Position numbers and translations under genes: made by a program. A DNA stretch of 64,000 bases from Planctomycetota bacterium (lineage in GTDB: Bacteria > Planctomycetota > UBA8108 > SXIK01), in NCBI GenBank assembly GCA_965223845.1, contig CBDCXR010000004.1, positions 3,787,334 through 3,851,333 on the forward strand, read 5' to 3'. This document shows, piece after piece, positions 46,799 through 58,734 of the stretch. The notes under the pieces are model-generated. The model made no database searches, was not told where the DNA came from, and saw only the letters and a list, made by a program, of their open reading frames with translations. Each line of letters opens with the position of its first letter. Position 1 is the first letter of the stretch.

Positions 46799-46975
46799 TC
46801 GAGTTTCGTCTCTCGCTTCGCCGGCCGATGGCACCGGTGATCTAACCGCGCATCCTCCGTCTTTCTTGTACCCGAGAACGATCTCTCGTGCGCCTCCGAA
46901 CCGCGCGCGACCTTGGCTCGGGTCGGAACTCGTGAGACGATGGCGAGAACGAAACGGCTCCGAGTTCCATCGACA

Positions 46976-48526
46976 ATGCGCTTCACCCTCGCGTTCTGCG
47001 CTCTAACTCTGGTCGTCGCGTTCTCGTCCATCGCGCGAGCCGAAGACTTCGTTCGCGGTGATGGGAACGGCGACGCGGCGGTCGACATCGCCGATCCGGT
47101 TTTCGTCTTTCTCGCCCTCTTCGGCAGCGAAGGTCCTCTACCCTGCGCCGACGCGGCGGACGCCAACGACGACGGCGCTGTCGACGTCGCGGACGTCGCC
47201 TATCTCCTCAACTATCTCTTCGGCGACGGGACCGCCCCGCCGCCGCCGGGTGACGGCCCATGCGGAGGCGTCGACCCGACGCTCGACGAGCTCGCGTGTT
47301 CGGAGCCGCTCGAACCGCCGCTCGCGAGCGGACCACCGAGGCTCCGCTGGACGGCGACGTACGCGCCGGCACGGGGACTGGAGCAGCGAACTCGGCTCCC
47401 TCTTTCGACGGAAAGCGACGACACGGTCCGCGCCGACCTCGGCGTCGCGTTTTCCCTGCTTCTCGAGGCTTCGGCACATCCGGACGGCCGCGCGCCCGTC
47501 GAGATTCTGCTCGACCCTCACACTGTCGATCCGGAAGTCCTCGCCGTACGCTGCGATCGCGATCTCCTCTCGCCCGAGGGGATCGTCCCGGCCGGCACCA
47601 ATCTCGCCCCGTGGTTCTCACGCGAGACCGAGGGCTGGATCGACCCGATCTACCTCACCCAGGAGGTCGCGCTCCGGGTCGATCGCCTCACCTCGGTAGG
47701 ACCGATCGATCCGGGTCGCCACGTGTTCACAGCGGAAGCGGTCGACACCGCTTGCGCTCGTGCGTCTCCTGCTGCGATCGCGATCGAGATCGTACCGTCG
47801 CTCGCCCCGCGGATCTCCATCGCCGCGATCGACGAGACCGGAGCTCCGCACCCCCACCACGCGGGGAGCGGCAACCTTCGCGTTTCGCCCGGAGCGGACG
47901 ACATCCTCCTCGAGATCGATGCCACCCCGAACGCCGCCGTTGAGGACGCGCCCATCGACGCGGAGAGTCTACACGTCTCGTCCTCGCCGCCGGTGGACGG
48001 CGCGGCCGATCTCACGGAACGATTCGAGCGCGTCGCACCGACTCTCTGCCGATGGCGGGGCCGCGTCCCCGTGCGCGAGCTCACGCCCGGGAACACGACG
48101 ATCACGGTTTCGCTTCGGTCGGCGAATGACGCCGCGGCGAGCAGCGTCCTCTTCACGATCGAGCTCGAGGTGTCGTACGCCCGCGACGTCCAGTCGATTT
48201 GGAACGCCAACTGCTCCGGCTGCCACGAGGGGCCGAACGCGGCGCGCGGACTCGAGCTCGTCGCGCCCGGAGAAGACCCGGAGGAAATTCGGCGCTCCTT
48301 CGTCAACGTGTTCGCTGCGGGGCCGTCGATCGAATCGGTCGCGCCGGTTCACGTCCGCCCGTTCTTTCCGCGCCGGAGCTACCTCTTTCACAAGCTCGAG
48401 GGCACGCACCTCGACGAGCCCGTCCGCGGCAGCGGCGAACGCATGCCGGCGGACGGTCCGCCGTACTTGAGTGAGGCTGCCATCCACACGGTCCGGAGCT
48501 GGATCGTCCAGGGCGCCGCTCCGTAA
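46976..48526 (+). CDS. secreted protein: N-terminal dockerin-like module, central beta-rich region, C-terminal CxxCH (PSCyt1-like) heme-binding domain
   Basis: Signal peptide MRFTLAFCALTLVVAFSSIARA. Dockerin-like module. C-terminal VQSIWNANCSGCHEG..ARGLEL...SYLFHKLEG...MP...PYLSEAAIHTVRSWI resembles the planctomycete cytochrome c domain. Confidence 0.75.
   Translation: MRFTLAFCALTLVVAFSSIARAEDFVRGDGNGDAAVDIADPVFVFLALFGSEGPLPCADAADANDDGAVDVADVAYLLNYLFGDGTAPPPPGDGPCGGVDPTLDELACSEPLEPPLASGPPRLRWTATYAPARGLEQRTRLPLSTESDDTVRADLGVAFSLLLEASAHPDGRAPVEILLDPHTVDPEVLAVRCDRDLLSPEGIVPAGTNLAPWFSRETEGWIDPIYLTQEVALRVDRLTSVGPIDPGRHVFTAEAVDTACARASPAAIAIEIVPSLAPRISIAAIDETGAPHPHHAGSGNLRVSPGADDILLEIDATPNAAVEDAPIDAESLHVSSSPPVDGAADLTERFERVAPTLCRWRGRVPVRELTPGNTTITVSLRSANDAAASSVLFTIELEVSYARDVQSIWNANCSGCHEGPNAARGLELVAPGEDPEEIRRSFVNVFAAGPSIESVAPVHVRPFFPRRSYLFHKLEGTHLDEPVRGSGERMPADGPPYLSEAAIHTVRSWIVQGAAP
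47042..47320 (+). other. dockerin-like double EF-hand module, copy 2 (N-terminal, CxxCH protein)
   Basis: EDFVRGDGNGDAAVDIADPVFVFLALFG...PCADAADANDDGAVDVADVAYLLNYLFG...PPPPGDGPCGGVDPTLDELAC. Confidence 0.7.
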
Positions 48527-48711
48527 CGGTCGCTGGCGATCGCAGAGCTCGAATCCACCGGGACGCCGAGCAGAATCCGCAGTGACACGGATCTCGGGTA
48601 GGATCTGAAAGAGTAAGCGAGCAGAACTCCGCCGCGATTCGACCCGGAGAGTCCGCCTGCTCGCGGTGCGTCACGCGACTTCAACCAAGTTCATTCTCCG
48701 AGGAGTTGACC

Positions 48712-49281
48712 ATGCGCCGAAAAACGTGGCTCGGCGGTGTGCTCTCTGTGCTCGCCCTCACGCTTCTCATCTCGCCCGACGGCCGCGCTCGTTCCCAGTC
48801 GGGGGACGCGGGTGACGACGGCCCGAAGAAACCCGAGACCGCGACCGTCGACCGCGCCGCGCTCGAAGCAGAGTTCGCCAAGACGCTCGAAAACGCCGTC
48901 CTCGTCGGCAAATTTCGGCTGATCTCGAACGACGAGATCGGCGACGAGAAGCCCGAGCGCTACGAGATTCGGTCGGCGAAGAAGCTCGCGGGCGATCGCT
49001 GGATCATCACCGCTCGCGTCAAGTACGGCACGCTCGACGTCGAGTTTCCGTTCCCGGTCGACGTCGTGTGGGCCGGCGATACACCGATCATCTCTGTCAC
49101 CGACGTGCGCTTTCTCACGTACGGTCCGTACACCGCTCGCGTCATGGTCTACCGCGGACTCTACACCGGAACCTGGTTCGGTCCCGGTCACGGCGGACTC
49201 ATGAGCGGCCGCGTCGAACGCGCCGCAGCGGACGCGAAGGACGCGAAAGACGCAGAACGCGCCGAGCCGAAATCGGAGTAG
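48712..49281 (+). CDS. secreted hypothetical protein
   Basis: AGGAG lies 6 nt upstream of ATG 48712. Signal peptide MRRKTWLGGVLSVLALTLLISP. GC-rich third positions, a beta-rich core and a charged KDAKDAERAEPKSE tail. No family name recognised. Confidence 0.6.
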   Translation: MRRKTWLGGVLSVLALTLLISPDGRARSQSGDAGDDGPKKPETATVDRAALEAEFAKTLENAVLVGKFRLISNDEIGDEKPERYEIRSAKKLAGDRWIITARVKYGTLDVEFPFPVDVVWAGDTPIISVTDVRFLTYGPYTARVMVYRGLYTGTWFGPGHGGLMSGRVERAAADAKDAKDAERAEPKSE

Positions 49282-49317
49282 GCTCCTCGTCCGAACGCGA
49301 GATCACGGACCGATGAC

Positions 49318-52300
49318 TCACGCCTTCGCGAGGTAGATCACAACTTCGGTTCCAGCGCCCGTGGCGGCCTTGAGGCGGAGGTCCCCTCCGTGTCCTCGCA
49401 CCGCGCCGTATGCGATCGAGAGCCCGATCCCTGAATTGCCGTCGGACAGCTTGGTCGTGAAGAACGGCTCGAGAGCGCGCTCGCGCTCGGGCTCGTTCAT
49501 CCCGGGGCCGCTGTCTCGGATGCGCACTTCAACGTACGCTCCGTCGAGAAGCCCCCCGGGATCGTCCACGAGACGAGTGTTCGACGTGCGAACGGTCAGC
49601 GTACCCGTCGTCGCCATCGCTTCTCGCGCGTTCCGAAGGATCGCCTCGAAGGCGGCGGACAGTCGATTCCGCTGCGCGCGAACCGGCCACAGTCCGACTT
49701 GCGCGCGAAAATCGACTCGCACGCCGCCCCGGCTCGCCGTCTCGGCATCGACGAGCGACTGGAGAAGAGCGTTGAGATCGATCTCCTCTTCCGGCTCCGA
49801 CGAATCGTTCGCGCTGCCGCAGAAGAGAGCCAGCCGATCGGTGAGCTCCTGGGCCTCGGTAAGACGTTCGAGCAGACGGTCGTCGACGCTGGGAGGATGT
49901 TCCTCGGAGCCGAGAAACGCGTCCAGGTGGTCGAGGATCCCGCGCAAGTCGCGAGAGAGTCGGCGCGAGAGTCCTTGGAGACTCTCGAGACGACGATCGC
50001 GCTCGCGAAGCGCCGCGACGCGCGCCTCCCGAGTCTCTTCGACGACGACGACGACACGGGTTCGTTGCCCACCCCCGATCGTGAATCCGCGCAAACGAAA
50101 GATCCGCTCGTCGGCGTCGTTCGGGCGGAACCCCTGAATCGAAAACGGTTCTCCCGCCGCGAGCATGCGAAGAGGAGCGTCGAGGTCGCGATGCGCGAAG
50201 AAGGGGAGGAGCGTGAGGGGCCGTCCGACGACATCGTCGAGTCGCGCCGGATCGATTCCGAGGCTCTCGGCGGCATTCCCGTTGAAGTCGATGACGCGGC
50301 CGCCGGCGTCGAGGACGAAAAGCGGATGGGGATAACTCGCGAACAGCGCGCGGTACCGCGTCTGTCGCCGGCGGTGCGCGAGCGACCACCGAAGCACGAT
50401 CGCCAGCGCAGCGAGCCCGACGATCGCCGCCACGGCGAGGAGCGCGCTCGTGACCCAGTCCCGCGACGGCGCGAAGCCTGCGACGGAAAACCGGTGCACG
50501 ATCGGCTCCCGGCAACTGTTGCCGTCGCGATCGCGCACCTCGACTTCGAGGACGTGATCCCCCGCGGCCAGCGGCCCCACACGAAGCGAGCTCTCGTGCG
50601 AGAACACGGACCACGGCTCGTTGTCGACGCGAGTGCGGTAGAGAAGCTCCCCGGGCGGCGTATCACCCCGGTGATCGTTCGCTCCCCACGAAAACGTGCC
50701 GACGCCGTCCTCATCGATCTCGTTCGGCAGGTCGCGGTGCGTGAAGCGAGGCGGGCGCCGCCCCTCGAGCGGTCGGTAGCGCCACACGCCTTGTCCATGA
50801 GTTCCGATGAGGAGAGTTCCCGGCTCCGAAACCGATGGAAAGACCGGCCAAACGCCGCTCCAACGATCGCCGGCCGAGCCGACGGGGACGTCGTAGAAAC
50901 ATTCGCCGTCGAAGCGGGTAAGCCCTCGATCCGTCCCGAACCAGAGATCGTCCCCGAGAGTCCTGATCGACCACACCGCGCTCGAAATCTCGCGAAAGCT
51001 CTCGACCTCGTCGCCACGGATGCGGCTCACCCCGGTGGCGGAGTCCGGGTAGCAGACCCAGATCGATCCGTCGGAACCTTCCGCGACCGACCACGTCGCG
51101 GACGAGAGCAGCCCGTCGTCGAGATCCCACTGCTGCTCCGGGACGAATCGCGGCTCGCCGACTTCCTCGCCGGAGAGAAACCGGCCACGAAAGACGCCGC
51201 GATCGGTAGCGAGCCAGAGCTCACCCGTCCGGAGGCGAAGGAGGTCGTTGACCGCGTACCGGCCGCCCTCGAGGCTCACCGTCTCGAATTGGGATCCGGT
51301 GAGCACCGAATGACGAAAGATCGCCGAGCTCGGGCCGTCGACGTCGCGGTGCGGGAGAAACCACAGCTCGCCGCGCCAATCCTTCACAATCCGGGCGATG
51401 CGGTGATCGCGAAGGCCCGGCGCGGTGACGCGGTGCCAATTGATCCCGTCGTAGACGTGCGCACCCAAGAACGCGTTCGAAGTGATCCAGACTCGTCCTT
51501 CGCCGTCTTCGGCGAGGCCGGTGACGCGCGGAAACGGAAACGACTGAATCCGTCCGCTGCGTTCGTGGAGCACGACGGCACTGTCCATGCCGGCGAAGAC
51601 GTCCCCGCCGCTGGTTTCGATGAGACTGAGAACACTCGGATGGACTCCCTCGTGCCCGGTCTCGACGTGCGACCAGCGACGCGACTCGGGATCGAAGACG
51701 GCGATTCCTCCCGGTCCCACGCGGAACCAGACGACGCCCGAGGTGTCGACGATCTCCGCCGCGAGCGCGACCGACCCGATGCCCAGCTCCGCCGCCGTCT
51801 CCCAATCGCGACCGTCCGGCGAGACGATGACTCGGCCGTCCTCGGTCGTCGCGACGTAGATGCCGTCGTGGAGGCGGAGGATCCTCGTCACGCTTCGATC
51901 CGGCGCACTCGCCGGACGCCAAACCTCGCCGTCGAGTCGAGCGAGAATGCCCGACGCCCCGGTCTCGGTGCTCGCATCGTCGCGCGGGACGAACCATCCC
52001 CACAGCTCGGCGCTCTCTTCCCCGCCGATCGGATCGCCCGCTGCTCGCCGCGGCGACGCTTCGTGCTCGACGCGGAAAAACCGCACGCAAACCTGGTCGC
52101 CGAGCCGCGGATCGACCTCCCGGCGTTCGACCCGTTTCCACCGCTTTCGACTGAGATCGCGCGTGAAGAGATCGAACGTCGTCGCGATCCAGTGGCGGCC
52201 GTCTCCGGCGACTGCGTACGCGCGGATCTCGCCGGTCACGTTGAGAAGAGGCTGATCCTCCGGGTCGAGAGGAGAGAGAGCCTCGCGGCGAATCTTGAAG

Positions 52301-52839
52301 TGACGGCGCTCCCCGCCGTCGAGAAGAAAGAGCTCGCCGAAACGTCCGCGCGCGAGAAAGAGACTCTGGCCTCGGTACACCGGTTCGAGGACGCCCTCGC
52401 CGAGGAGACGCCAGAGCACGCCCGCGCCGAGCGCGTAGATCTCCTTGAGCGACTCGGCGATCGTCGTGATGTCCGGCGCCGGATTCCCCGCCGGGAACGG
52501 AAACACGTCCCACTGCCACAGGTCGTAGCGGCACACACCGAGATTCGTCGCGGCGTAGACCTCGTTCGTGCTCGCTTGAAGGAGAGCCGTCACCGAGTTC
52601 GAGTTGAGTCCGTCCTCGCGCGAGTAGCTGTTCCAGCGCCACGCTTCGCCGAGCGCCGCTCGCAGCCGCAGAGCGCCGGCCGTCAACTCCGTCGCCGGGG
52701 CAGCTCTCGCCGGGATCGCCGGTTCGAACTGCCCCTGCGCCGGTACTACGGAGGCGCAGATGAGAGATGCACCCACACCAACCGCGGAGACCCTACGCCG
52801 AAGGCGAGCGGCAACGCAGACAGAGCGGCGTGCGTTCAA
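49318..52839 (-). CDS. sensor kinase-like protein: periplasmic two-component-regulator propeller repeats + Y_Y_Y domain, TM, PAS, dimerisation region, HATPase_c
   Basis: TTG at 52839 (TTGA overlap with the upstream small ORF) gives the signal peptide MNARRSVCVAARLRRRVSAVGVGASLICASVVPAQG. Long propeller-type repeats follow, then a Y_Y_Y-like segment (LLYRTRVDNEPWSVF...HVLEVEVRDRDGN) and TM LLAVAAIVGLAALAIVL. ATPase boxes present: ILRNAREAM, DSGPGM, FEPFFTTK, GIGLSI. Confidence 0.85.
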   Translation of the reverse strand: MNARRSVCVAARLRRRVSAVGVGASLICASVVPAQGQFEPAIPARAAPATELTAGALRLRAALGEAWRWNSYSREDGLNSNSVTALLQASTNEVYAATNLGVCRYDLWQWDVFPFPAGNPAPDITTIAESLKEIYALGAGVLWRLLGEGVLEPVYRGQSLFLARGRFGELFLLDGGERRHFKIRREALSPLDPEDQPLLNVTGEIRAYAVAGDGRHWIATTFDLFTRDLSRKRWKRVERREVDPRLGDQVCVRFFRVEHEASPRRAAGDPIGGEESAELWGWFVPRDDASTETGASGILARLDGEVWRPASAPDRSVTRILRLHDGIYVATTEDGRVIVSPDGRDWETAAELGIGSVALAAEIVDTSGVVWFRVGPGGIAVFDPESRRWSHVETGHEGVHPSVLSLIETSGGDVFAGMDSAVVLHERSGRIQSFPFPRVTGLAEDGEGRVWITSNAFLGAHVYDGINWHRVTAPGLRDHRIARIVKDWRGELWFLPHRDVDGPSSAIFRHSVLTGSQFETVSLEGGRYAVNDLLRLRTGELWLATDRGVFRGRFLSGEEVGEPRFVPEQQWDLDDGLLSSATWSVAEGSDGSIWVCYPDSATGVSRIRGDEVESFREISSAVWSIRTLGDDLWFGTDRGLTRFDGECFYDVPVGSAGDRWSGVWPVFPSVSEPGTLLIGTHGQGVWRYRPLEGRRPPRFTHRDLPNEIDEDGVGTFSWGANDHRGDTPPGELLYRTRVDNEPWSVFSHESSLRVGPLAAGDHVLEVEVRDRDGNSCREPIVHRFSVAGFAPSRDWVTSALLAVAAIVGLAALAIVLRWSLAHRRRQTRYRALFASYPHPLFVLDAGGRVIDFNGNAAESLGIDPARLDDVVGRPLTLLPFFAHRDLDAPLRMLAAGEPFSIQGFRPNDADERIFRLRGFTIGGGQRTRVVVVVEETREARVAALRERDRRLESLQGLSRRLSRDLRGILDHLDAFLGSEEHPPSVDDRLLERLTEAQELTDRLALFCGSANDSSEPEEEIDLNALLQSLVDAETASRGGVRVDFRAQVGLWPVRAQRNRLSAAFEAILRNAREAMATTGTLTVRTSNTRLVDDPGGLLDGAYVEVRIRDSGPGMNEPERERALEPFFTTKLSDGNSGIGLSIAYGAVRGHGGDLRLKAATGAGTEVVIYLAKA

Positions 52840-53150
52840 GGGCGGGCGGGCGGCGGATCTCCTGCAGCCGCGCTCCCCTGGGCGACCGCCGCGACTCCGG
52901 AGAGGCTCTCGGCGCGCGCGACGCGGGCGATGAATACCGCGAGCCCTGCGCCGATGCTGAGAACGACACCGAGCATAAAGAGGATGCTCCAGTAGAGGCC
53001 CGCCGCCAGACTCCCCTGCGAATCGCCGCCGTCCGATCGAGCGCTGTCCTCGACGGCCTCGCCGCACATCGCACACTGGGCGGTGAGCTCCGGTGCGAAC
53101 GCTGCAAAGGAGAGGGCGACGATGACGAACATGCGCGCGGGAGTGTTCAT
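52836..53150 (-). CDS. small membrane protein with signal peptide, CAMC motif and one TM helix
   Basis: 104 codons with strongly GC-rich third positions. MNTPARMFVIVALSFAAFAPELTAQ-CAMCGE...LYWSILFMLGVVLSIGAGLAVFIA. The stop overlaps the TTG of the sensor kinase. The competing frame here is only the Arg-rich extension of the kinase ORF. Confidence 0.6.
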   Translation of the reverse strand: MNTPARMFVIVALSFAAFAPELTAQCAMCGEAVEDSARSDGGDSQGSLAAGLYWSILFMLGVVLSIGAGLAVFIARVARAESLSGVAAVAQGSAAAGDPPPARP

Positions 53151-53400
53151 GCTCTAATTCTATCCCGGACCGCGCGGGAGTTTCTACTCCGCCGCACGTT
53201 TCTCGGCGGACGCGGGCTGGGCCGGCTCGGTTTCGCGCGCGCCCCGGGCAGCGCGCCGCGATACGATGCGCTCGCGGTCGATTTCCGACCGATCATAGGC
53301 CCCACCCACTCGAAATCGACGAGCTCCCACGATGCCGTTTCTCCCTCGACGTCGACCCGACGAACGTGTGCGCAGAGATCGAACGCCGCACGCATACACG

Positions 53401-56085
53401 ATGTCTCCCTCCTCGATCGCGTTTCCACTCGTCGCCGGCGTGCTGGTCGCGAAACTCGCGTTCGGAGACCCGACCGCCCTCCCTCTGGACCGCGGCGCCG
53501 CGGGACTCGAGCGCGCGCTGAAGCAGCTCTCGACGACGGCGAGCGTTCTCCACGTCGTCGCCCACCCCGACGACGAAGACGGCCCGCTCCTCACCTACCT
53601 CGCGCGCGGGCGCGGTGTGCGTACGATGGCCCTCTCGCTCACACGCGGTGAAGGCGGCGCAAATCTCATCGCACCGTATTTCTTCGATGAGCTCGGCGTC
53701 CTTCGCACGCTCGAATACCTCGAGGCGAATCGCTACTACGGCGTCGAACAGTTCTTCACCCGCGCCGCAGACTACGGGTACTCGAAACAGCTCTCCGAAG
53801 CCCAGCGCAAGTGGAAGGGATCCGAGATCCTGCTCGAGGACATGGTTCGCGTGATCCGCCGCGAGCGCCCGGACGTCGTGATCTCGCGCTTCTGGGGCGG
53901 GCGGAGAGACGGTCACGGTCACCACACCCTCGCGGGTGTCCTCACGCCGGAGGCCTGCGCCGCCGCCGCGGATCCGGAACGCTTCCCCGATCAACTGCGC
54001 GAAGGGCTCTTTCCCTGGCGAGTGAAGAAGCTCTACCGCGGGAACATCCGCCCCGAGCGCCGCGCGGAGGACGCGGAGGCGTGGACGGTGAAGGTCGATG
54101 CGGGCGAGTACGATCCCCTCCTCGGGGCGTCGTACTACCAGATCGCGCGCCGGGGCTACGGTTTCCATCGCTCCCAGGGGATCCTCCATCACGACGGTCG
54201 CGCCGGCAGCCGCGTCAGCCACTACCAGCTCATTCCGGCCGACTCGGACGAGCGCGTCGTAGAGGAAAGCCTGTTCGACGGCCTCGATACGACCCTTCGC
54301 GGTCTCACCGAATACTGGAGTGGCGAGACTCCGGCTTGGCTCGTCGACGGACTCGATCGGACTGCGGACTGGATCGCCTCCGCCCGTTCAGAATTCCGCG
54401 CGGACGATCCGCCGCGTATCGTTCCCCCGCTCGCGAACGCGCTGCGCTCGGTGCGCTCGCTCTCGAGTCAACTCTTCGACACGAGCTCCGGCACGCCCGA
54501 AAGCCATCGCGAGATCGCACGGCACCTCGCGCGGAAGGAACACGAACTCGAGCGCGCGCTCAGCCTCGCGCTCGGAATCGATCTCGAGGCGGCCGCGGGG
54601 AGAGACTCGCTCACCGGTTCGTCGCCCTTCTCACGCTCGAGCACGTTCGCCCACGCGACCCCGGGACAGATGTTCGACGTCGGTGTACGCCTCGTGCATC
54701 GCAGCCGCGTCCCGGTCGAGTTTCTGAAGGCGACGCTGAGCCTACCTCCGGGTTGGAGCTCGATGCTTCGAGACGCGACTCCGCCCGACTCGAATCTCGC
54801 TTACAACGGCGAAGCCCGGGCGAAGTTCAGCGTCGCGGTACCTTCCGCAGCATCGCCCACCCGACCGTACTGGCGACGCGCATCGATTTCCGACGCGTTT
54901 TACGACGTCGTCGATTCGCTCGCGACGCTGCCGTTCGCCCCGCCGCCGGCGTCCTGCCGCGCGACGATTCGCGTCGCCGGCGTCGAGGTCTCGGTCGACA
55001 CTCCGGTCCGCCTCGTCCTTCGCGATCCGGGGCTCGGGACTCGCTATCCGCCGCTCGCCGTCGCGCCACCGGTCAGCGTTCGATTCGCCGAGGGCGCGGG
55101 GATCCTGCCGCGCGGCAGGACGCGCTACGAGCTCACCGTGACCGTCCGCGGCGACGTCGCGGGCGGCGCATCGGGCGACGTGCGCCTCCAGGTCCCCGCC
55201 GGCTGGTCCGTCGAACCGGCGAGTGCGCCGTTTCGATTCGATCGCGAGGGCGCCGAGTCGACGCTCCGCTTCACGCTCTCGGCGCCGACGGAGCCCGCCG
55301 GCGAACGGTACGAAATCCGCGCGATCGCACGCCACGCGGACCGTGAGTACTCCGAAGGCTACCGGACGATCGAAGCACGCGACGTCGGCCGCTACGATTA
55401 CTATCTACCCGCGATTCACCGAGTGCGCGTCGTCGACGTCAACCTCGCGAACGACCTCGCCATCGCTTACGTGACGGGTTCCGGAGACGACATTCCGCAG
55501 AGCCTCCGTTTCCTCGGAATCGCGCCGACGCTTCTCGATTCCGAGACGCTCCAGAGCGGTGACCTCGATCGCTTCGACGCGATCGTCGTCGGCGTTCGGG
55601 CCTACGCGGTCCGAGAAGACGTCCGCCGCGTCAACTCGCGCCTCCTCGGCTACGTCGAACGCGGCGGCGTCCTCGTCGTTCAGTACCAGACGCCCGAGTT
55701 CGATCGAAACTTCGGCCCGTATCCGTATTCGATGGGACGCGCCGAAGAAGTGAGCGAGGAAGACGCCGCGGTCCGCATCCTCGCCCCGGAACATCCGCTT
55801 TTCACACAGCCGAATGCGATCGCCGCCGCCGACTTCGACGACTGGGTTGAGCAGCGCGGCTCGAAGTTCTGGGCGACCTGGGATGAGCGATACACACCGC
55901 TTCTCGAATGCCACGACGAAGACCAGGAACCACAACGCGGCGGGATGCTCTACGCACGCTCCGGAAAGGGCGCATACATCTACAGCGCGTACGCATGGTA
56001 CCGCCAGCTTCCCGCGGGAGTTCCCGGTGCGTTCAGGATCTACGCCAACCTGCTGTCCCACCGGAGAACTCTCGAGTCTCGCTAG
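53401..56085 (+). CDS. PIG-L (LmbE-like) family deacetylase fused to beta-sandwich repeats and a C-terminal ThuA/GATase1-like domain
   Basis: VLHVVAHPDDEDG and HGHHTLAG (PIG-L metal site). The central region is Ig-like. The C-terminal segment DRFDAIVVGVRAYAVRED...GGVLVVQYQT resembles class-I amidotransferase-like/ThuA-like folds. Confidence 0.82.
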   Translation: MSPSSIAFPLVAGVLVAKLAFGDPTALPLDRGAAGLERALKQLSTTASVLHVVAHPDDEDGPLLTYLARGRGVRTMALSLTRGEGGANLIAPYFFDELGVLRTLEYLEANRYYGVEQFFTRAADYGYSKQLSEAQRKWKGSEILLEDMVRVIRRERPDVVISRFWGGRRDGHGHHTLAGVLTPEACAAAADPERFPDQLREGLFPWRVKKLYRGNIRPERRAEDAEAWTVKVDAGEYDPLLGASYYQIARRGYGFHRSQGILHHDGRAGSRVSHYQLIPADSDERVVEESLFDGLDTTLRGLTEYWSGETPAWLVDGLDRTADWIASARSEFRADDPPRIVPPLANALRSVRSLSSQLFDTSSGTPESHREIARHLARKEHELERALSLALGIDLEAAAGRDSLTGSSPFSRSSTFAHATPGQMFDVGVRLVHRSRVPVEFLKATLSLPPGWSSMLRDATPPDSNLAYNGEARAKFSVAVPSAASPTRPYWRRASISDAFYDVVDSLATLPFAPPPASCRATIRVAGVEVSVDTPVRLVLRDPGLGTRYPPLAVAPPVSVRFAEGAGILPRGRTRYELTVTVRGDVAGGASGDVRLQVPAGWSVEPASAPFRFDREGAESTLRFTLSAPTEPAGERYEIRAIARHADREYSEGYRTIEARDVGRYDYYLPAIHRVRVVDVNLANDLAIAYVTGSGDDIPQSLRFLGIAPTLLDSETLQSGDLDRFDAIVVGVRAYAVREDVRRVNSRLLGYVERGGVLVVQYQTPEFDRNFGPYPYSMGRAEEVSEEDAAVRILAPEHPLFTQPNAIAAADFDDWVEQRGSKFWATWDERYTPLLECHDEDQEPQRGGMLYARSGKGAYIYSAYAWYRQLPAGVPGAFRIYANLLSHRRTLESR

Positions 56086-56261: not shown

Positions 56262-58388
56262 TCACTCGCCCGCTTTGTCTTCGCTTCCCTCTTCGGACGA
56301 CTCGGAGTCCTCGTCCTTCTCCTTCTCCGGAGCGTACTCGAGCTCCGGAGCCGGCGGTTCACCGCCGTCGCCTTTCAAGTAGTGCTCGAACCACCGCAGC
56401 ATCCGCAGGTGGTAATCGAAGCGCGCCGCCGACTTCCGGTTGCCGTGGCCTTCTCCCGGATAGAGGACGAGGCGCACGGGTGTCTTCCCGAGATGGCGAA
56501 GGTGACGGTAGAGCTCCATCGACTGGCTCGGATGGACGCGGGTGTCCTCTTTACCGTGGAGAATGAGGAGTGGCGTGCGCGACTTCTCGACGTGGTAGAT
56601 GGGACTTCGTTCGAGGAACCATTCCCAATTGCCGTAGAGTTTCTTTCGCGCGTGGACGAGGAACATCTCGTTCGGGATGTCCGTCGTACCGAACTTCGAG
56701 ATTTGATCGCTGATACCGACGAACATCACGCCAGCCGCGAAGCGCTCGGAGTGATAGGTCGAGCACCACGCCGTCGCGAAGCCGCCGTAGGACCCGCCCG
56801 TGACACCGACTTTATCCTTGTCGACGAGTCCGATCGAAACGAGGTGATCGACGGTGTCGACGAGGTCGTCGAACTCCTTCCCCGCGTAGTCACTCTGGCC
56901 GAGCTTCGAGAACGCGACTCCGCGTCCCGTACTGCCGCGGTAGTTGGGGTGGAACACCGCAAAGCCGCGTGCCGAGGCGACCTGACCCGGTCCCGAGTAG
57001 AACGATGTCCACCCGTTTCGATCGTGAGCCTCGGGTCCACCGTGAACGCGAAGGATCAGCGGGTACCGTTCGCCCTCTTTCTCGTCGAGCGGTCGAATCA
57101 GGATCCCCTCGAGCTCGAGACCGTCGCGCGCTTTGTAGCGGACGATCTCCTGCTTCGCAAAGCGCATCGCGTCGAGCCAGTCGTTGCTCGTCGTCAAACG
57201 ACGCGGCGATTCTTCCGATGTCCGGAGCGCAAAGACCTCATTCGGGTACTCGGGATGACTCGAGAGGAACGCGATGCGCGAGCCGTCGCGCGAGATCGAG
57301 AGATCGGACGCGACGAGCGATCCCTTCTCGACGAGCACACGCGGCTTCTCGGCGTCGATGTGATACTCGCCGATCGAGCACGTCGCCCCGACCGAGGCGA
57401 TGTAGCTCACGGTGAAGTCGTCCTTCCAAACGATCGCGTCAAAGTCGCCCTCTCCCGGAAACGGAAGCTGCTTCGGCGCGCCGCCGACGGCGGGTACGAC
57501 CATGAGTCGCCCGGCGTTCGGATCGTGGATGTCCTCGGCCGAGAGAAACGCGAGCTTCGTTCCGCTCGGATTCCAGGCGAGGGGCCCGAGCTTCCCCGGC
57601 GTGTCGAAGACGGCGAAGACTTGCGCCGACTCGACGTCGACCACGTGGATCTTTCGCTTCATGAACCAGTCGTCGATGAGCGGGGTCGGCGCGATCGTGA
57701 GCGCGAGGCGGTCGCCGCGCGGCGACCAGTGAAGATCGGACGGGAATCCCTCGATCTCGAGCGCTCGCGGCTCATCGTCGCTGTTGATCGAGCCGACGAG
57801 GACGCGCGTCGGGCGAAACTCTTCTTCGTAGATCTGCTGATTGAAACCCTTCTCGACGAGAGACTTTCGATCGTCGGCGACCGGGTCGGTCGCGATGAAC
57901 GCGACGCGCTTCCCGTCCGGACTCCACGAGTAGGACGCTATGTCACTCTTATGAGAGAGAACCTTGCTCGCCTCACCACCGTCGATCGGGATGACGTAAA
58001 GACTTCGGTGAGCGTCTTTCCCGCGTTTCGCGAGAAACGAAATTCCGGTTCCGTCGGGCGTCCACTCGACTTGACCGACGCTCACTTCACCGCTCACGTA
58101 CGGTCGCGAAGTGCCGTCCGCGCCGATCACGTGAAGCTCGGCCCACGACGAGCCGGACGGCTCGGCGACCGGCGTTCTCGGGACGCGGAGAACGTACGCG
58201 ATGCGCTGCCCGTCCGGCGCGATCCGCGCGGACGAGACCATGCGGAGCTTCGCCACGTGCTCGGGAGTGAACACCTCGCCGGCGGAGTCGTTCGCGACCG
58301 GAGTGTCCGAGTCGTCCGCGGCGACGGCGAGAGTGGCGATGCTGGCGAAGAGCGCGGCGGACGCAACAAGCACAGTACGTTCGTTCAT
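56262..58388 (-). CDS. S9 family serine peptidase (prolyl oligopeptidase / acylaminoacyl-peptidase type) with N-terminal beta-propeller
   Basis: Signal peptide MNERTVLVASAALFASIATLAVA. TolB/WD40-like repeats (SPDG.R.AF). Nucleophile elbow GGSYGGFATAW; PLLILHGKEDTRV; PGEGHG. Acidic C-terminal tail. Confidence 0.9.
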   Translation of the reverse strand: MNERTVLVASAALFASIATLAVAADDSDTPVANDSAGEVFTPEHVAKLRMVSSARIAPDGQRIAYVLRVPRTPVAEPSGSSWAELHVIGADGTSRPYVSGEVSVGQVEWTPDGTGISFLAKRGKDAHRSLYVIPIDGGEASKVLSHKSDIASYSWSPDGKRVAFIATDPVADDRKSLVEKGFNQQIYEEEFRPTRVLVGSINSDDEPRALEIEGFPSDLHWSPRGDRLALTIAPTPLIDDWFMKRKIHVVDVESAQVFAVFDTPGKLGPLAWNPSGTKLAFLSAEDIHDPNAGRLMVVPAVGGAPKQLPFPGEGDFDAIVWKDDFTVSYIASVGATCSIGEYHIDAEKPRVLVEKGSLVASDLSISRDGSRIAFLSSHPEYPNEVFALRTSEESPRRLTTSNDWLDAMRFAKQEIVRYKARDGLELEGILIRPLDEKEGERYPLILRVHGGPEAHDRNGWTSFYSGPGQVASARGFAVFHPNYRGSTGRGVAFSKLGQSDYAGKEFDDLVDTVDHLVSIGLVDKDKVGVTGGSYGGFATAWCSTYHSERFAAGVMFVGISDQISKFGTTDIPNEMFLVHARKKLYGNWEWFLERSPIYHVEKSRTPLLILHGKEDTRVHPSQSMELYRHLRHLGKTPVRLVLYPGEGHGNRKSAARFDYHLRMLRWFEHYLKGDGGEPPAPELEYAPEKEKDEDSESSEEGSEDKAGE

Positions 58389-58734
58389 GACGATTCGTTT
58401 CCGTCGAAAGACAAGCACACCCGCAGAGCGGCGGACAAAACTCCCGCTCTGGTTGCTGGTGCGCGCAAGATCGGAGGCGCCGCCCGCATCGGAGGTCGGG
58501 TTCCGGCGCACGAAGACCATCGGATTTCGAGACCCACGGTCACGATGACCGCGCGCTTCTTCCGGGTCAACCGATTCCTAGCGTCGGCATCAGCGGGCGC
58601 GATCTTCGGCGCGGGAACGTCCAAAGCGCCGGGACGGGGTTTTCGGAACGAGCTCCACTCGTCCGGCCGCCCGCGCTTCAGCCGGACGGGGGCGCGGCGG
58701 AGAAACTGTCCGAAATCCCGACGAACGGGCCCTC

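What the first reader, a model, noticed from the sequence alone, without database searches (positions are those of the whole stretch)
52836..53150. 104-codon signal-peptide/CxxC/TM protein translationally coupled (TTGA) to the giant sensor kinase
The small ORF has coding-like GC3. It has a cleavable-looking signal peptide ending ...ELTAQ, followed directly by CAMCGE, an acidic/Gly-rich linker, one strong TM helix (LYWSILFMLGVVLSIGAGLAVFIA) and a short tail. Its TGA shares three bases with the only plausible start of the kinase (TTG 52839), which then yields a good signal peptide. This implies co-translation and probably a stoichiometric partnership. A periplasm-facing CxxC next to a propeller sensor could be a redox or metal co-sensor, or an accessory subunit. 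Automated annotation would likely miss the ORF because the kinase ORF can be extended over it in another frame.
Basis: partly seen in the sequence, partly recalled or inferred. Interest (0 to 1): 0.55.

Follow-up and report, generated by a model that had tools for sequence, protein, structure and literature searches.

The report
Small Cys/Sec membrane protein beside sensor
The small gene is real and belongs to an unnamed, widespread family of tiny membrane-anchored proteins with a two-cysteine centre (selenocysteine in about a quarter of relatives) that normally sits at the end of cytochrome oxidase operons and in this lineage has been placed in front of a large sensor protein.

Summary
The 104-codon ORF (52836-53150, minus strand) is a genuine gene with coding-like GC3. 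It is already called in the public annotation. It has about 546 homologues in Planctomycetota and Bacteroidota, all 'hypothetical', with no Pfam or NCBIfam model. Signal peptide, C-x-x-C and TM helix are confirmed, and both Cys are invariant.

In 14 of 59 distinct homologues one of the two Cys codons is an in-frame TGA (CxxU or UxxC). A SECIS-like hairpin follows it. This marks the motif as a redox or metal centre and points to a selenoprotein family that I could not find described.

About 70% of family genes lie directly after SCO1 and DUF420/CtaM at the end of aa3 cytochrome oxidase operons.

A subclade (the window plus five other lineages) instead sits directly upstream of orthologues of the Reg_prop-PAS-HATPase protein. 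The TTGA overlap is not conserved: gaps are 9-70 nt elsewhere. The kinase start is ambiguous (TTG 52839 or GTG 52776). The 'kinase' has no conserved phospho-acceptor His.

Best reading: a periplasmic thiol or copper module borrowed from oxidase biogenesis and co-expressed with the sensor. That mechanism is inferred, not shown.

The parts
52836..53150 (-). Small gene, 104 aa. It is a member of an unnamed signal-peptide / C-x-x-C / single-TM family.
   Evidence: ORF list. GC3 is 0.80. Identical product in public protein sets. Family alignment A1. Scores 102 bits against the family HMM.
53079..53150 (-). Signal peptide, residues 1-24 (MNTPARMFVIVALSFAAFAPELTA). Cleavage is inferred after A24, which would leave Q-C-A-M-C at the mature N-terminus.
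   Evidence: Read from the sequence. The short h-region followed by an A-x-A-like site directly before the motif is conserved across the family: AxA|C or AxA|U in the ACPxC clade, xA|QC in the AQCAMC clade. The cleavage site is inferred, not shown.
53064..53075 (-). C26-A-M-C29 motif, the functional centre (TGC GCG ATG TGC).
   Evidence: Both Cys are invariant in 28 aligned sequences. Either position is an in-frame TGA in 14 of 59 distinct homologues.
52926..52997 (-). Transmembrane helix, residues 52-75 (LYWSILFMLGVVLSIGAGLAVFIA), with the family motif G-x-[YF]-W-S-I-L-F-M-L. An R-rich cytoplasmic tail follows.
   Evidence: Hydropathy 2.65. Conserved motif. The AF2 model has a helix at 49-95 with pLDDT 84-95.
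52836..52839 (-). TTGA overlap: TTG (52839-52837) is a candidate start of the downstream gene and TGA (52838-52836) is the stop of the small gene.
   Evidence: The alternative start is GTG 52776, 59 nt downstream of the stop, and the public annotation uses it.
49318..52839 (-). Downstream gene, 1173 aa from the TTG start. Domain order: signal peptide, about 760-aa periplasmic Reg_prop propeller region, TM (residues 798-816), PAS, DHp-like segment without a conserved His, HATPase_c.
   Evidence: Pfam and NCBIfam. TM prediction. Orthologues P0003-P0006, L005, L021, L033, L063 and L068. No conserved His.
53157..53186 (-). Sigma-70-like promoter match (TAGAAA-18 nt-TAGAAT). It ends 7 nt before the ATG, so the small gene plus sensor transcript may be leaderless.
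   Evidence: It is the only promoter-like match in 49000-53500, against 0.2 expected from shuffles. No terminator-like site lies between the two genes. This is a consensus match only.

Best explanation
The ORF encodes a type-I, single-pass inner-membrane protein.

Proposed anatomy (inferred from sequence):
- After signal-peptide cleavage, about 27 periplasmic residues remain, beginning Q-C-A-M-C.
- A flexible acidic/Gly linker tethers this segment to one TM helix.
- A short basic cytoplasmic tail follows.

The N-terminal C-x-x-C is a redox-active and/or Cu(I)-binding dithiol. In about a quarter of homologues it is a selenol/thiol pair.

The family's usual place is the last gene of aa3-type cytochrome c oxidase operons, directly after the copper chaperone/thiol reductase SCO1 and the assembly factor DUF420/CtaM. 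There it most likely acts as a membrane-tethered arm that reduces or metallates thiol sites near the membrane surface during oxidase maturation.

In the window's lineage a subclade of this family has moved in front of a Reg_prop-PAS-HATPase sensor and is transcribed with it. I propose that the oxidation or copper-loading state of its C-x-x-C is read by the sensor, through TM-TM or juxtamembrane contact. This would resemble MgrB making PhoQ sensitive to periplasmic redox state, and SenC/PrrC being wired to RegB/PrrB.

Shown: the gene is real; family membership; invariant Cys with Sec replacement; SCO1-DUF420 linkage; conserved synteny with the sensor.

Inferred: topology and cleavage site; redox or copper chemistry; any contact with the sensor.
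For: - Real, conserved family with invariant C26/C29.
- In-frame TGA, never TAA or TAG, falls exactly at one of the two Cys codons in 14 of 59 distinct homologues, in several separate clades. The frame continues into the conserved TM motif.
- TGA still terminates genes in the same loci, for example the L003 small gene itself.
- SECIS-like hairpins, UxxC forms: 7 of 7 have a 6-7 bp stem starting 10-11 nt after UGA with loop GGUC. Two pairs show compensatory changes. 0 of 45 Cys forms have a GGU loop at that site.
- SECIS-like hairpins, CxxU forms: a consensus 8-pair hairpin with 4 compensatory pairs.
- Some Planctomycetes carry the full Sec machinery (PMC4807772).
- Oxidase context: COX1-CtaA-CtaB-COX3-COX4-SCO1-DUF420-small in L012. 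The same order occurs in Algoriphagus, a Bacteroidota genome, and in L061. DUF420 lies directly upstream in 43 fetched loci.
- CtaM/DUF420 is required for aa3 oxidase activity, and further assembly factors are expected (PMC9145763).
- Sensor synteny in six lineages with 9-70 nt gaps, and no terminator-like site in the window. The sensor-linked copies form one cluster.
- Basic residues follow the TM helix (positive-inside rule; sequence).
Against: - No experiment bears on any step.
- The window copy is not next to SCO1, DUF420 or cox genes, so a role in oxidase maturation cannot be assumed for it.
- Two sensor orthologues (L001, L004) lack the small gene upstream, and in L021 it lies 3.3 kb away on the other strand. 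The sensor can therefore exist without an adjacent copy.
- Synteny among related Planctomycetota may simply be inherited.
- The SECIS-like hairpin overlaps a conserved peptide (E/A-A-V-A-S/A) whose codons are partly self-complementary. Some Cys forms also form a stem there, with a CUUG or CUGG loop.
- Sec-decoding genes could not be checked in the MAGs that carry the TGA forms.
- The AF2 model draws the signal sequence as a helix continuous through the CxxC. An uncleaved two-helix hairpin topology is therefore not excluded.
- Redox and metal-binding roles cannot be told apart from sequence.
Confidence: 0.45

Rival explanations
1. The small protein is purely a cytochrome oxidase or copper-handling biogenesis factor. 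Its position in front of the sensor only reflects co-regulation or inherited gene order, for example the sensor controlling respiratory genes. It neither binds nor modulates the sensor.
For: About 70% of family members lie in SCO1-DUF420-small operons, with no sensor of this type nearby. Sensor orthologues L001 and L004 lack it. The overlapping stop/start is not conserved. In Algoriphagus a terminator-like hairpin separates the small gene from an unrelated kinase that follows it.
Against: The window has no cox, SCO1 or DUF420 gene within 64 kb. The pair persists in six lineages, although the small proteins share only about 36-55% identity and the sensors 33-46%. The sensor-linked copies form their own cluster. 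The window has a promoter-like site only upstream of the small gene and no terminator between the two genes.
Confidence: 0.3
2. The C-x-x-C is a Cu(I)- or other soft-metal-binding site, that is, a membrane-tethered metallochaperone or metal sensor, not a thiol-disulfide redox centre.
For: It is linked to SCO1, a copper chaperone, and to oxidase genes. The motif resembles the MxCxxC of HMA domains (own knowledge). Sec also occurs in the metal-binding UxxC of a cation-transporting ATPase and in a MerT-like protein, according to the selenoprotein table of PMC9312934. An ectodomain of about 27 residues is too small for a thioredoxin fold.
Against: Most Sec/Cys pairs in CxxU or UxxC motifs are in oxidoreductases (PMC9312934). 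No His or Met ligands are conserved near the motif. There is no HMA or other metal-domain match.
Confidence: 0.2
3. The ORF is a chance open frame in GC-rich DNA, or the 5' part of the kinase gene read in the wrong frame. The TGA-containing relatives are pseudogenes or assembly errors.
For: High-GC DNA gives many long spurious ORFs here. The kinase frame stays open back to 53076.
Against: 546 homologues occur in two phyla with a conserved motif pattern. GC3 is 0.80 in the small frame and 0.61 in the kinase frame. The 14 independent TGAs fall only at the two Cys codons, with intact frames on both sides and dedicated hairpins.
Confidence: 0.03

Closest known systems
MgrB (with PhoQ) and other small membrane-protein modulators of sensor kinases
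   Same: Both are very small single-pass membrane proteins with periplasmic cysteines. MgrB acts on PhoQ, and the PhoQ/PhoP response to loss of DsbA involves MgrB (PMC11825808). The role proposed here is the same in concept.
   Different: There is no sequence similarity. MgrB is N-in/C-out without a cleaved signal peptide, and its gene is not adjacent to phoQ (own knowledge). Here the gene lies directly upstream of the sensor, the Cys pair is a C-x-x-C at the mature N-terminus, and Sec variants exist. Interaction with the sensor is untested.
SenC/PrrC (SCO1 homologue) co-transcribed with RegB/RegA (PrrB/PrrA)
   Same: SenC/PrrC is a membrane-anchored periplasmic copper/thiol protein of oxidase assembly. 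It is invariably co-transcribed with a redox-responding two-component system (PMC9147068). The logic matches an oxidase-biogenesis module placed next to a sensor.
   Different: SenC has a full thioredoxin-fold SCO domain with CxxxC and His. The window protein has about 27 periplasmic residues and no SCO1 match. The sensor here is a propeller/PAS protein with no conserved His and no adjacent response regulator.
Bacterial CuA/CuB assembly factors: SCO1, TlpA, PCuAC, CtaK, CtaM (DUF420)
   Same: The family gene is the terminal gene of cox-SCO1-DUF420 operons. TlpA keeps CuA-site and Sco cysteines reduced. Many bacteria lack TlpA and unknown factors are expected (PMC9145763).
   Different: It is not homologous to any of these factors (no Pfam or NCBIfam hit) and it is much smaller. 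The window copy lies outside any cox cluster.
Prokaryotic selenoprotein families with CxxU/UxxC motifs and Cys homologues
   Same: It shows Sec/Cys pairing at a C-x-x-C, a hairpin directly downstream of the UGA, and multiple independent Cys/Sec switches. This is the pattern used to define such families (PMC9312934; PMC12013277).
   Different: The window member has Cys at both positions. I found no family in the reviews I read that is a small TM-anchored, oxidase-operon protein. Several families listed there only as 'hypothetical protein' could not be compared.
CcmH/NrfF (LRCxxC) and HMA/CopZ (MxCxxC) proteins
   Same: These are periplasmic or metal-handling C-x-x-C proteins. CcmH is also membrane-anchored and acts on respiratory cofactor assembly (own knowledge).
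   Different: There is no profile match to either. The ectodomain is too short for the CcmH helical bundle or the HMA ferredoxin-like fold.

Membership tests
Unnamed AQCAMC / ACPxC small membrane-protein family (defined here, alignment A1) | N-terminal signal sequence, invariant C-x-x-C directly after it, short acidic/Gly linker, TM helix with G-x-[YF]-W-S-I-L-F-M-L, basic tail, 75-130 aa | tested here: met
   The window protein scores 102 bits against the family HMM. Alignment shown. 546 members found.
Selenoprotein family with Cys homologues | In-frame UGA aligned with a conserved Cys of homologues, with the reading frame conserved on both sides | tested here: met
   Met for 14 of 59 distinct homologues: 7 CxxU and 7 UxxC. 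The window copy itself is the Cys/Cys form.
Selenoprotein family with Cys homologues | Bacterial SECIS: a stem-loop starting about 11 nt after the UGA with G(U) in the apical loop | tested here: met
   UxxC forms: 7 of 7 have a 6-7 bp stem 10-11 nt after UGA, loop GGUC, 2 compensatory pairs. CxxU forms: consensus 8-pair hairpin with 4 compensatory pairs, less uniform. 0 of 45 Cys forms have a GGU loop at that site. Rfam had no matching model.
Selenoprotein family with Cys homologues | selA, selB, selC (tRNA-Sec) and selD present in the same genomes; Se incorporation shown | not testable with these tools
The literature shows that some Planctomycetes have the machinery (PMC4807772).
Cytochrome c oxidase biogenesis cluster component | Encoded within a cox operon next to SCO1 and DUF420/CtaM | tested here: not met
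   Met for the family at large, with 43 fetched loci having DUF420 directly upstream. Not met for the window copy: no cox, SCO1 or DUF420 match in the 64 kb.
SCO1/SenC (PF02630) | Thioredoxin-like fold with CxxxC and a distal His | tested here: not met
   No Pfam or NCBIfam match. The motif is CxxC, and the ectodomain is about 27 residues.
CcmH/NrfF and HMA/CopZ CxxC proteins | Profile match to the CcmH or HMA domain | tested here: not met
   No families found at E<=0.1 in Pfam or NCBIfam. No PDB sequence relative.
Bacterial lipoprotein | Lipobox [LVI][ASTVI][GAS]C, with the Cys as the first mature residue | tested here: not met
   The window has L-T-A-Q-C, with Q at position -1. In UxxC relatives Sec occupies that position. 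The pattern fits signal peptidase I (AxA) better; this is an inference.
MgrB-type small-protein regulator of a sensor kinase | Direct binding to the sensor and modulation of it | not testable with these tools
   Only synteny in six lineages is available. There is no sequence similarity to MgrB, so this is a functional analogy only.
Canonical two-component histidine kinase (the downstream gene) | HisKA/DHp domain with a conserved phospho-acceptor His, plus HATPase_c | tested here: not met
   HATPase_c is present with N, G1, F and G2 boxes, but there is no HisKA match. No His column is conserved between PAS and HATPase_c in 7 orthologues, and two orthologues have no His there at all.

The most novel reading that the evidence does not exclude
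The family is a previously unrecognised selenoprotein/Cys-protein family. It would act as a new membrane-tethered thiol (selenol) or copper factor for aa3 cytochrome oxidase maturation, working with SCO1 and CtaM. In one Planctomycetota lineage it would have been recruited as the redox- or copper-sensing subunit of an atypical, His-less propeller/PAS/ATPase sensor.
Probability: 0.3. Interest if true: 0.78.

Novelty: new variant of a known kind. Interest (0 to 1): 0.62.

Why it matters
- The review of bacterial cytochrome oxidase assembly states that further assembly proteins are expected but unidentified. It also notes that TlpA is absent from many bacteria and that the role of CtaM/DUF420 is unknown (PMC9145763). 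A conserved C-x-x-C (or Sec) protein encoded directly after SCO1 and CtaM in two phyla is a concrete, testable candidate for that gap.
- The Sec forms would add a selenoprotein family that gene callers split or truncate. In L003 it was called as two genes of 30 and 33 aa.
- The sensor-linked subclade offers a natural case of an oxidase-biogenesis module wired to signal transduction. The partner 'kinase' lacks the canonical phospho-acceptor His.

Tried and rejected
- Pfam and NCBIfam on the small protein and on a cox-linked relative: no family.
- PDB sequence search with the family profile: only chance hits, E>=0.1.
- Word-indexed search with the single sequence found only itself. The full HMMER scan was needed to find relatives.
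- Exact-sequence contig look-up for the window protein: not on record.
A 9-sequence subset worked.
- Rfam scan of six loci carrying TGA forms: no SECIS-type match, only RNase P and chance miRNA hits.
- Minimum free energy of the 45 nt after the codon does not separate Sec forms from Cys forms in this GC-rich DNA. Loop sequence and stem position do.
- P0025, a 710-aa repetitive protein that matched the TM region nine times, is unrelated.
- The Algoriphagus kinase after the small gene is not homologous to the window sensor outside HATPase_c. It is a polytopic membrane protein preceded by a terminator-like hairpin, so I did not count it as sensor synteny.
- L002 is cut just upstream of the kinase and is uninformative.
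- A lipoprotein reading was rejected (no lipobox).
- A kinase start at GTG 53076 or 53067 was rejected because GC3 is 0.61 over that stretch and it would overlap the conserved small gene.
- Complex modelling of small protein plus sensor was not possible with the single-chain tool.
Full report
**The observation**

The minus-strand ORF 52836-53150 (ATG start, 104 aa) is present as described.
- Its product is MNTPARMFVIVALSFAAFAPELTAQCAMCGEAVEDSARSDGGDSQGSLAAGLYWSILFMLGVVLSIGAGLAVFIARVARAES...
- The codon-position GC profile is 0.70/0.58/0.80, typical of genes in this 67% GC window. The kinase frame laid over the same stretch has GC3 of only 0.61.
- One strong TM segment is predicted.
- The AlphaFold2 model built on the family alignment gives two helices, residues 3-39 and 49-95, with mean pLDDT 82.
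- The gene is not overlooked by annotation. The identical 104-aa product is in NCBI/ENA from a 7.87-Mb contig.

**It is a member of a real, unnamed family**

- Pfam and NCBIfam give nothing.
- The word-indexed search found only the protein itself.
- A full HMMER scan of 1.84 billion cluster representatives found about 30 small proteins of 76-127 aa with the same layout.
- In the alignment both cysteines are invariant. The consensus reads signal peptide - AQCAMCxE - about 15 variable residues - GGxLAxGFxWSILFMLG....
- A profile search then returned 546 proteins at E<=1e-4. All are 'hypothetical', none has a Pfam domain, and they come from Planctomycetota and Bacteroidota (Algoriphagus, Cecembia, Aquiflexum, Roseivirga).
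- A second clade carries A-C-P-x-C-K-E-A in place of AQCAMC.
- In both clades an A-x-A-like signal-peptidase site sits directly before the motif. The mature protein would therefore begin with C-x-x-C or Q-C-x-x-C. This is an inference from sequence.

**Selenocysteine forms**

In L003, upstream of a kinase orthologue, gene callers had split the homologue into 30-aa and 33-aa genes. Read through, it is one frame...DLAAQCAL-TGA-SES...-TM...DD-TGA.

I read every family locus through in-frame stops. Of 59 distinct sequences:
- 7 are CxxU (L003, L007, L008, L009, L021, L037, L046);
- 7 are UxxC (L011, L013, L016, L020, L023, L035, L044).

The interrupting codon is always TGA and always lies at one of the two Cys positions. 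The conserved TM motif always continues in frame. TGA also terminates genes in the same loci, so the code is standard.

Hairpins downstream of the TGA:
- UxxC forms all have a 6-7 bp stem starting 10-11 nt after the UGA with the loop GGUC. Two pairs show compensatory changes (CG/GC and CG/AU).
- From my own knowledge, an upper stem-loop 11 nt after the UGA with a GGUC loop is the arrangement of the E. coli fdhF SECIS.
- CxxU forms share a consensus 8-pair hairpin with four compensatory pairs, less uniformly.
- None of 45 Cys forms has a GGU loop at the equivalent site, although some form a stem there with a CUUG or CUGG loop.

One caveat is that the stem overlaps a conserved E/A-A-V-A-S/A peptide. 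Sec-decoding genes could not be checked in these MAGs. Some Planctomycetes do have the machinery (PMC4807772).

The reviews and prediction papers I could read list no small membrane-anchored, oxidase-linked selenoprotein. Several entries named only 'hypothetical protein' could not be compared.

**Genomic context of the family**

- In L012 the gene is the last of COX1 - CtaA - CtaB - COX3 - COX4 - SCO1 - DUF420 - small.
- The same order occurs in Algoriphagus marinus. L061 has SCO1 - DUF420 - small, followed by a multihaem cytochrome c.
- HMMs built from these neighbours find DUF420 directly upstream of the small gene in 43 fetched loci, usually with SCO1 before it.
- L007 and L008 lie convergent to COX3/COX4/cytochrome genes.
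- DUF420 is CtaM, which is required for aa3 oxidase activity by an unknown mechanism. The same review notes that TlpA, the reductant of CuA-site and Sco cysteines, is missing from many bacteria and that more assembly proteins are expected (PMC9145763).

**Link to the sensor**

The downstream gene (49318-52839 from TTG) has a signal peptide, Reg_prop repeats, a TM at residues 798-816, PAS and HATPase_c. Orthologues share 33-46% identity.

| Locus | Small-gene motif | Position relative to the sensor orthologue |
|---|---|---|
| Window | CAMC | TTGA overlap, or 59 nt to GTG 52776 |
| L003 | CxxU | 9 nt upstream |
| L005/L006 | CSMC | 30 nt upstream |
| L033 | CAMC | about 70 nt to the first ATG |
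| L063/L064 | CALC | about 45 nt upstream |
| L068 | CAMC | 37 nt upstream |
| L001, L004 | none | no small gene upstream |
| L021 | CAMU | 3.3 kb away, divergent strand |
| L002 | unknown | contig cut just upstream |

- The sensor-linked small proteins cluster together in a rough NJ tree.
- In the window, the only promoter-like match in 4.5 kb ends 7 nt before the small gene's ATG. No terminator-like site separates the two genes.
- The window holds no cox, SCO1 or DUF420 gene.

**The start of the sensor gene**

In its frame the only start codons are GTG 53076 and 53067, TTG 52839 and GTG 52776. The first two lie deep inside the small gene in a stretch with non-coding-like GC3. The public annotation uses GTG 52776 (P0002, 1152 aa), which leaves a signal peptide with no charged n-region. 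TTG 52839 supplies an Arg-rich n-region like those of the orthologues. TTG is therefore the better guess and the TTGA overlap is plausible. It is not proven, it is not 'the only plausible start', and coupling by overlap is not conserved.

**The 'kinase'**

No HisKA domain is detected. In a 7-orthologue alignment no His column is conserved between PAS and HATPase_c, and two orthologues have no His there at all. The ATP-binding boxes are conserved. No response regulator is adjacent in the window. Calling it a histidine kinase is therefore unsafe.

**Interpretation**

Shown:
- a real gene of a conserved two-phylum family;
- an invariant C-x-x-C that switches to Sec repeatedly;
- primary linkage to SCO1-CtaM at the end of cox operons;
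- a subclade stably placed in front of the propeller/PAS/ATPase sensor.

Inferred:
- N-out/C-in topology after signal cleavage;
- a redox-active or Cu(I)-binding N-terminal arm;
- in the window, relay of periplasmic thiol, copper or oxidase-assembly status to the sensor.

The closest functional precedents are MgrB with PhoQ (PMC11825808) and SenC/PrrC co-transcribed with RegB/RegA (PMC9147068). It is a member of neither family.

The main rival reading is that it acts only in oxidase or copper biogenesis and that the gene order reflects co-regulation or inheritance. Sequence cannot separate a redox role from a copper-binding role. Sec is known in both kinds of CxxC site (PMC9312934).

**Verdict**

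The more notable result lies outside the window. It is an undescribed Cys/Sec small-protein family tied to cytochrome oxidase operons.

Noticed in passing
window 49909-50004 (minus strand; residues about 946-977 of the 1173-aa product): The DHp-like segment between PAS and HATPase_c has no His conserved among 7 orthologues, and two orthologues have none there. No HisKA Pfam match was found. The N, G1, F and G2 boxes of the ATPase domain are intact. The 'sensor kinase' may not autophosphorylate on His.
   Followed up: partly
window 53157-53186 (minus strand): The only sigma-70-like match in 4.5 kb (TAGAAA-18 nt-TAGAAT) ends 7 nt before the small gene's ATG at 53150, in an AT-rich patch. This suggests a leaderless transcript for the small gene plus sensor.
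   Followed up: no
window 56262-58520 (minus strand) and L001 286-2358: A peptidase S9/PD40 protein lies directly upstream of the sensor orthologue in L001. In the window it lies upstream on the same strand, separated by the plus-strand PIG-L gene (53332-56085) and the small gene. This looks like an older S9-sensor neighbourhood into which genes were inserted.
   Followed up: no
L065 9001-13024 (Algoriphagus marinus): In this Bacteroidota genome the small gene ends the cox-SCO1-DUF420 operon with a terminator-like hairpin and T-run. A 1234-aa polytopic HisKA/HATPase_c kinase follows, unrelated to the window sensor outside the ATPase domain. I did not test whether 'small gene then giant kinase' recurs in Bacteroidota.
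   Followed up: partly
L003 322-582: Public gene calling split the CxxU homologue into two genes (30 aa and 33 aa) at the in-frame TGA. P0043 looks like another truncated call of a UxxC form. Sec members of this family are probably systematically mis-annotated.
   Followed up: partly
L051 1029-2488: A variant gene order: COX4 - small gene - SCO1 - DUF420. Here the small gene sits before SCO1 instead of after DUF420.
   Followed up: no
L061 1928-5695; L008 4866-8432; L007 4454-6148: Very large multihaem cytochrome c proteins (about 1190-1255 aa; Cytochrom_C, FixO-like and C7-like matches) lie next to the small gene in several AQCAMC/AQCAMU loci.
   Followed up: no
L009 1923-3605 and L021 5203-6861: A DUF1570 protein lies near the AQCAMU gene in both loci, and an SDR-family reductase lies downstream in both. 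This is a third recurring context that I did not explore.
   Followed up: no
window 46913-48526 (plus strand) and 48706-49281 (plus strand): Two secreted proteins lie convergent to the sensor. One is 537 aa with a weak dockerin-like N-terminus and a weak cytochrome-c-like CxxCH region. The other is 191 aa with no family match.
   Followed up: no
L023 7144-7664 (minus strand): A bacterial RNase P class A RNA (163 bits) turned up in the Rfam scan. It is unrelated to the finding.
   Followed up: no
P0025 (710 aa, metagenome): A highly repetitive protein matched the TM segment of the query nine times (E=4e-16). This is a compositional or repeat artefact, not a relative.
   Followed up: yes
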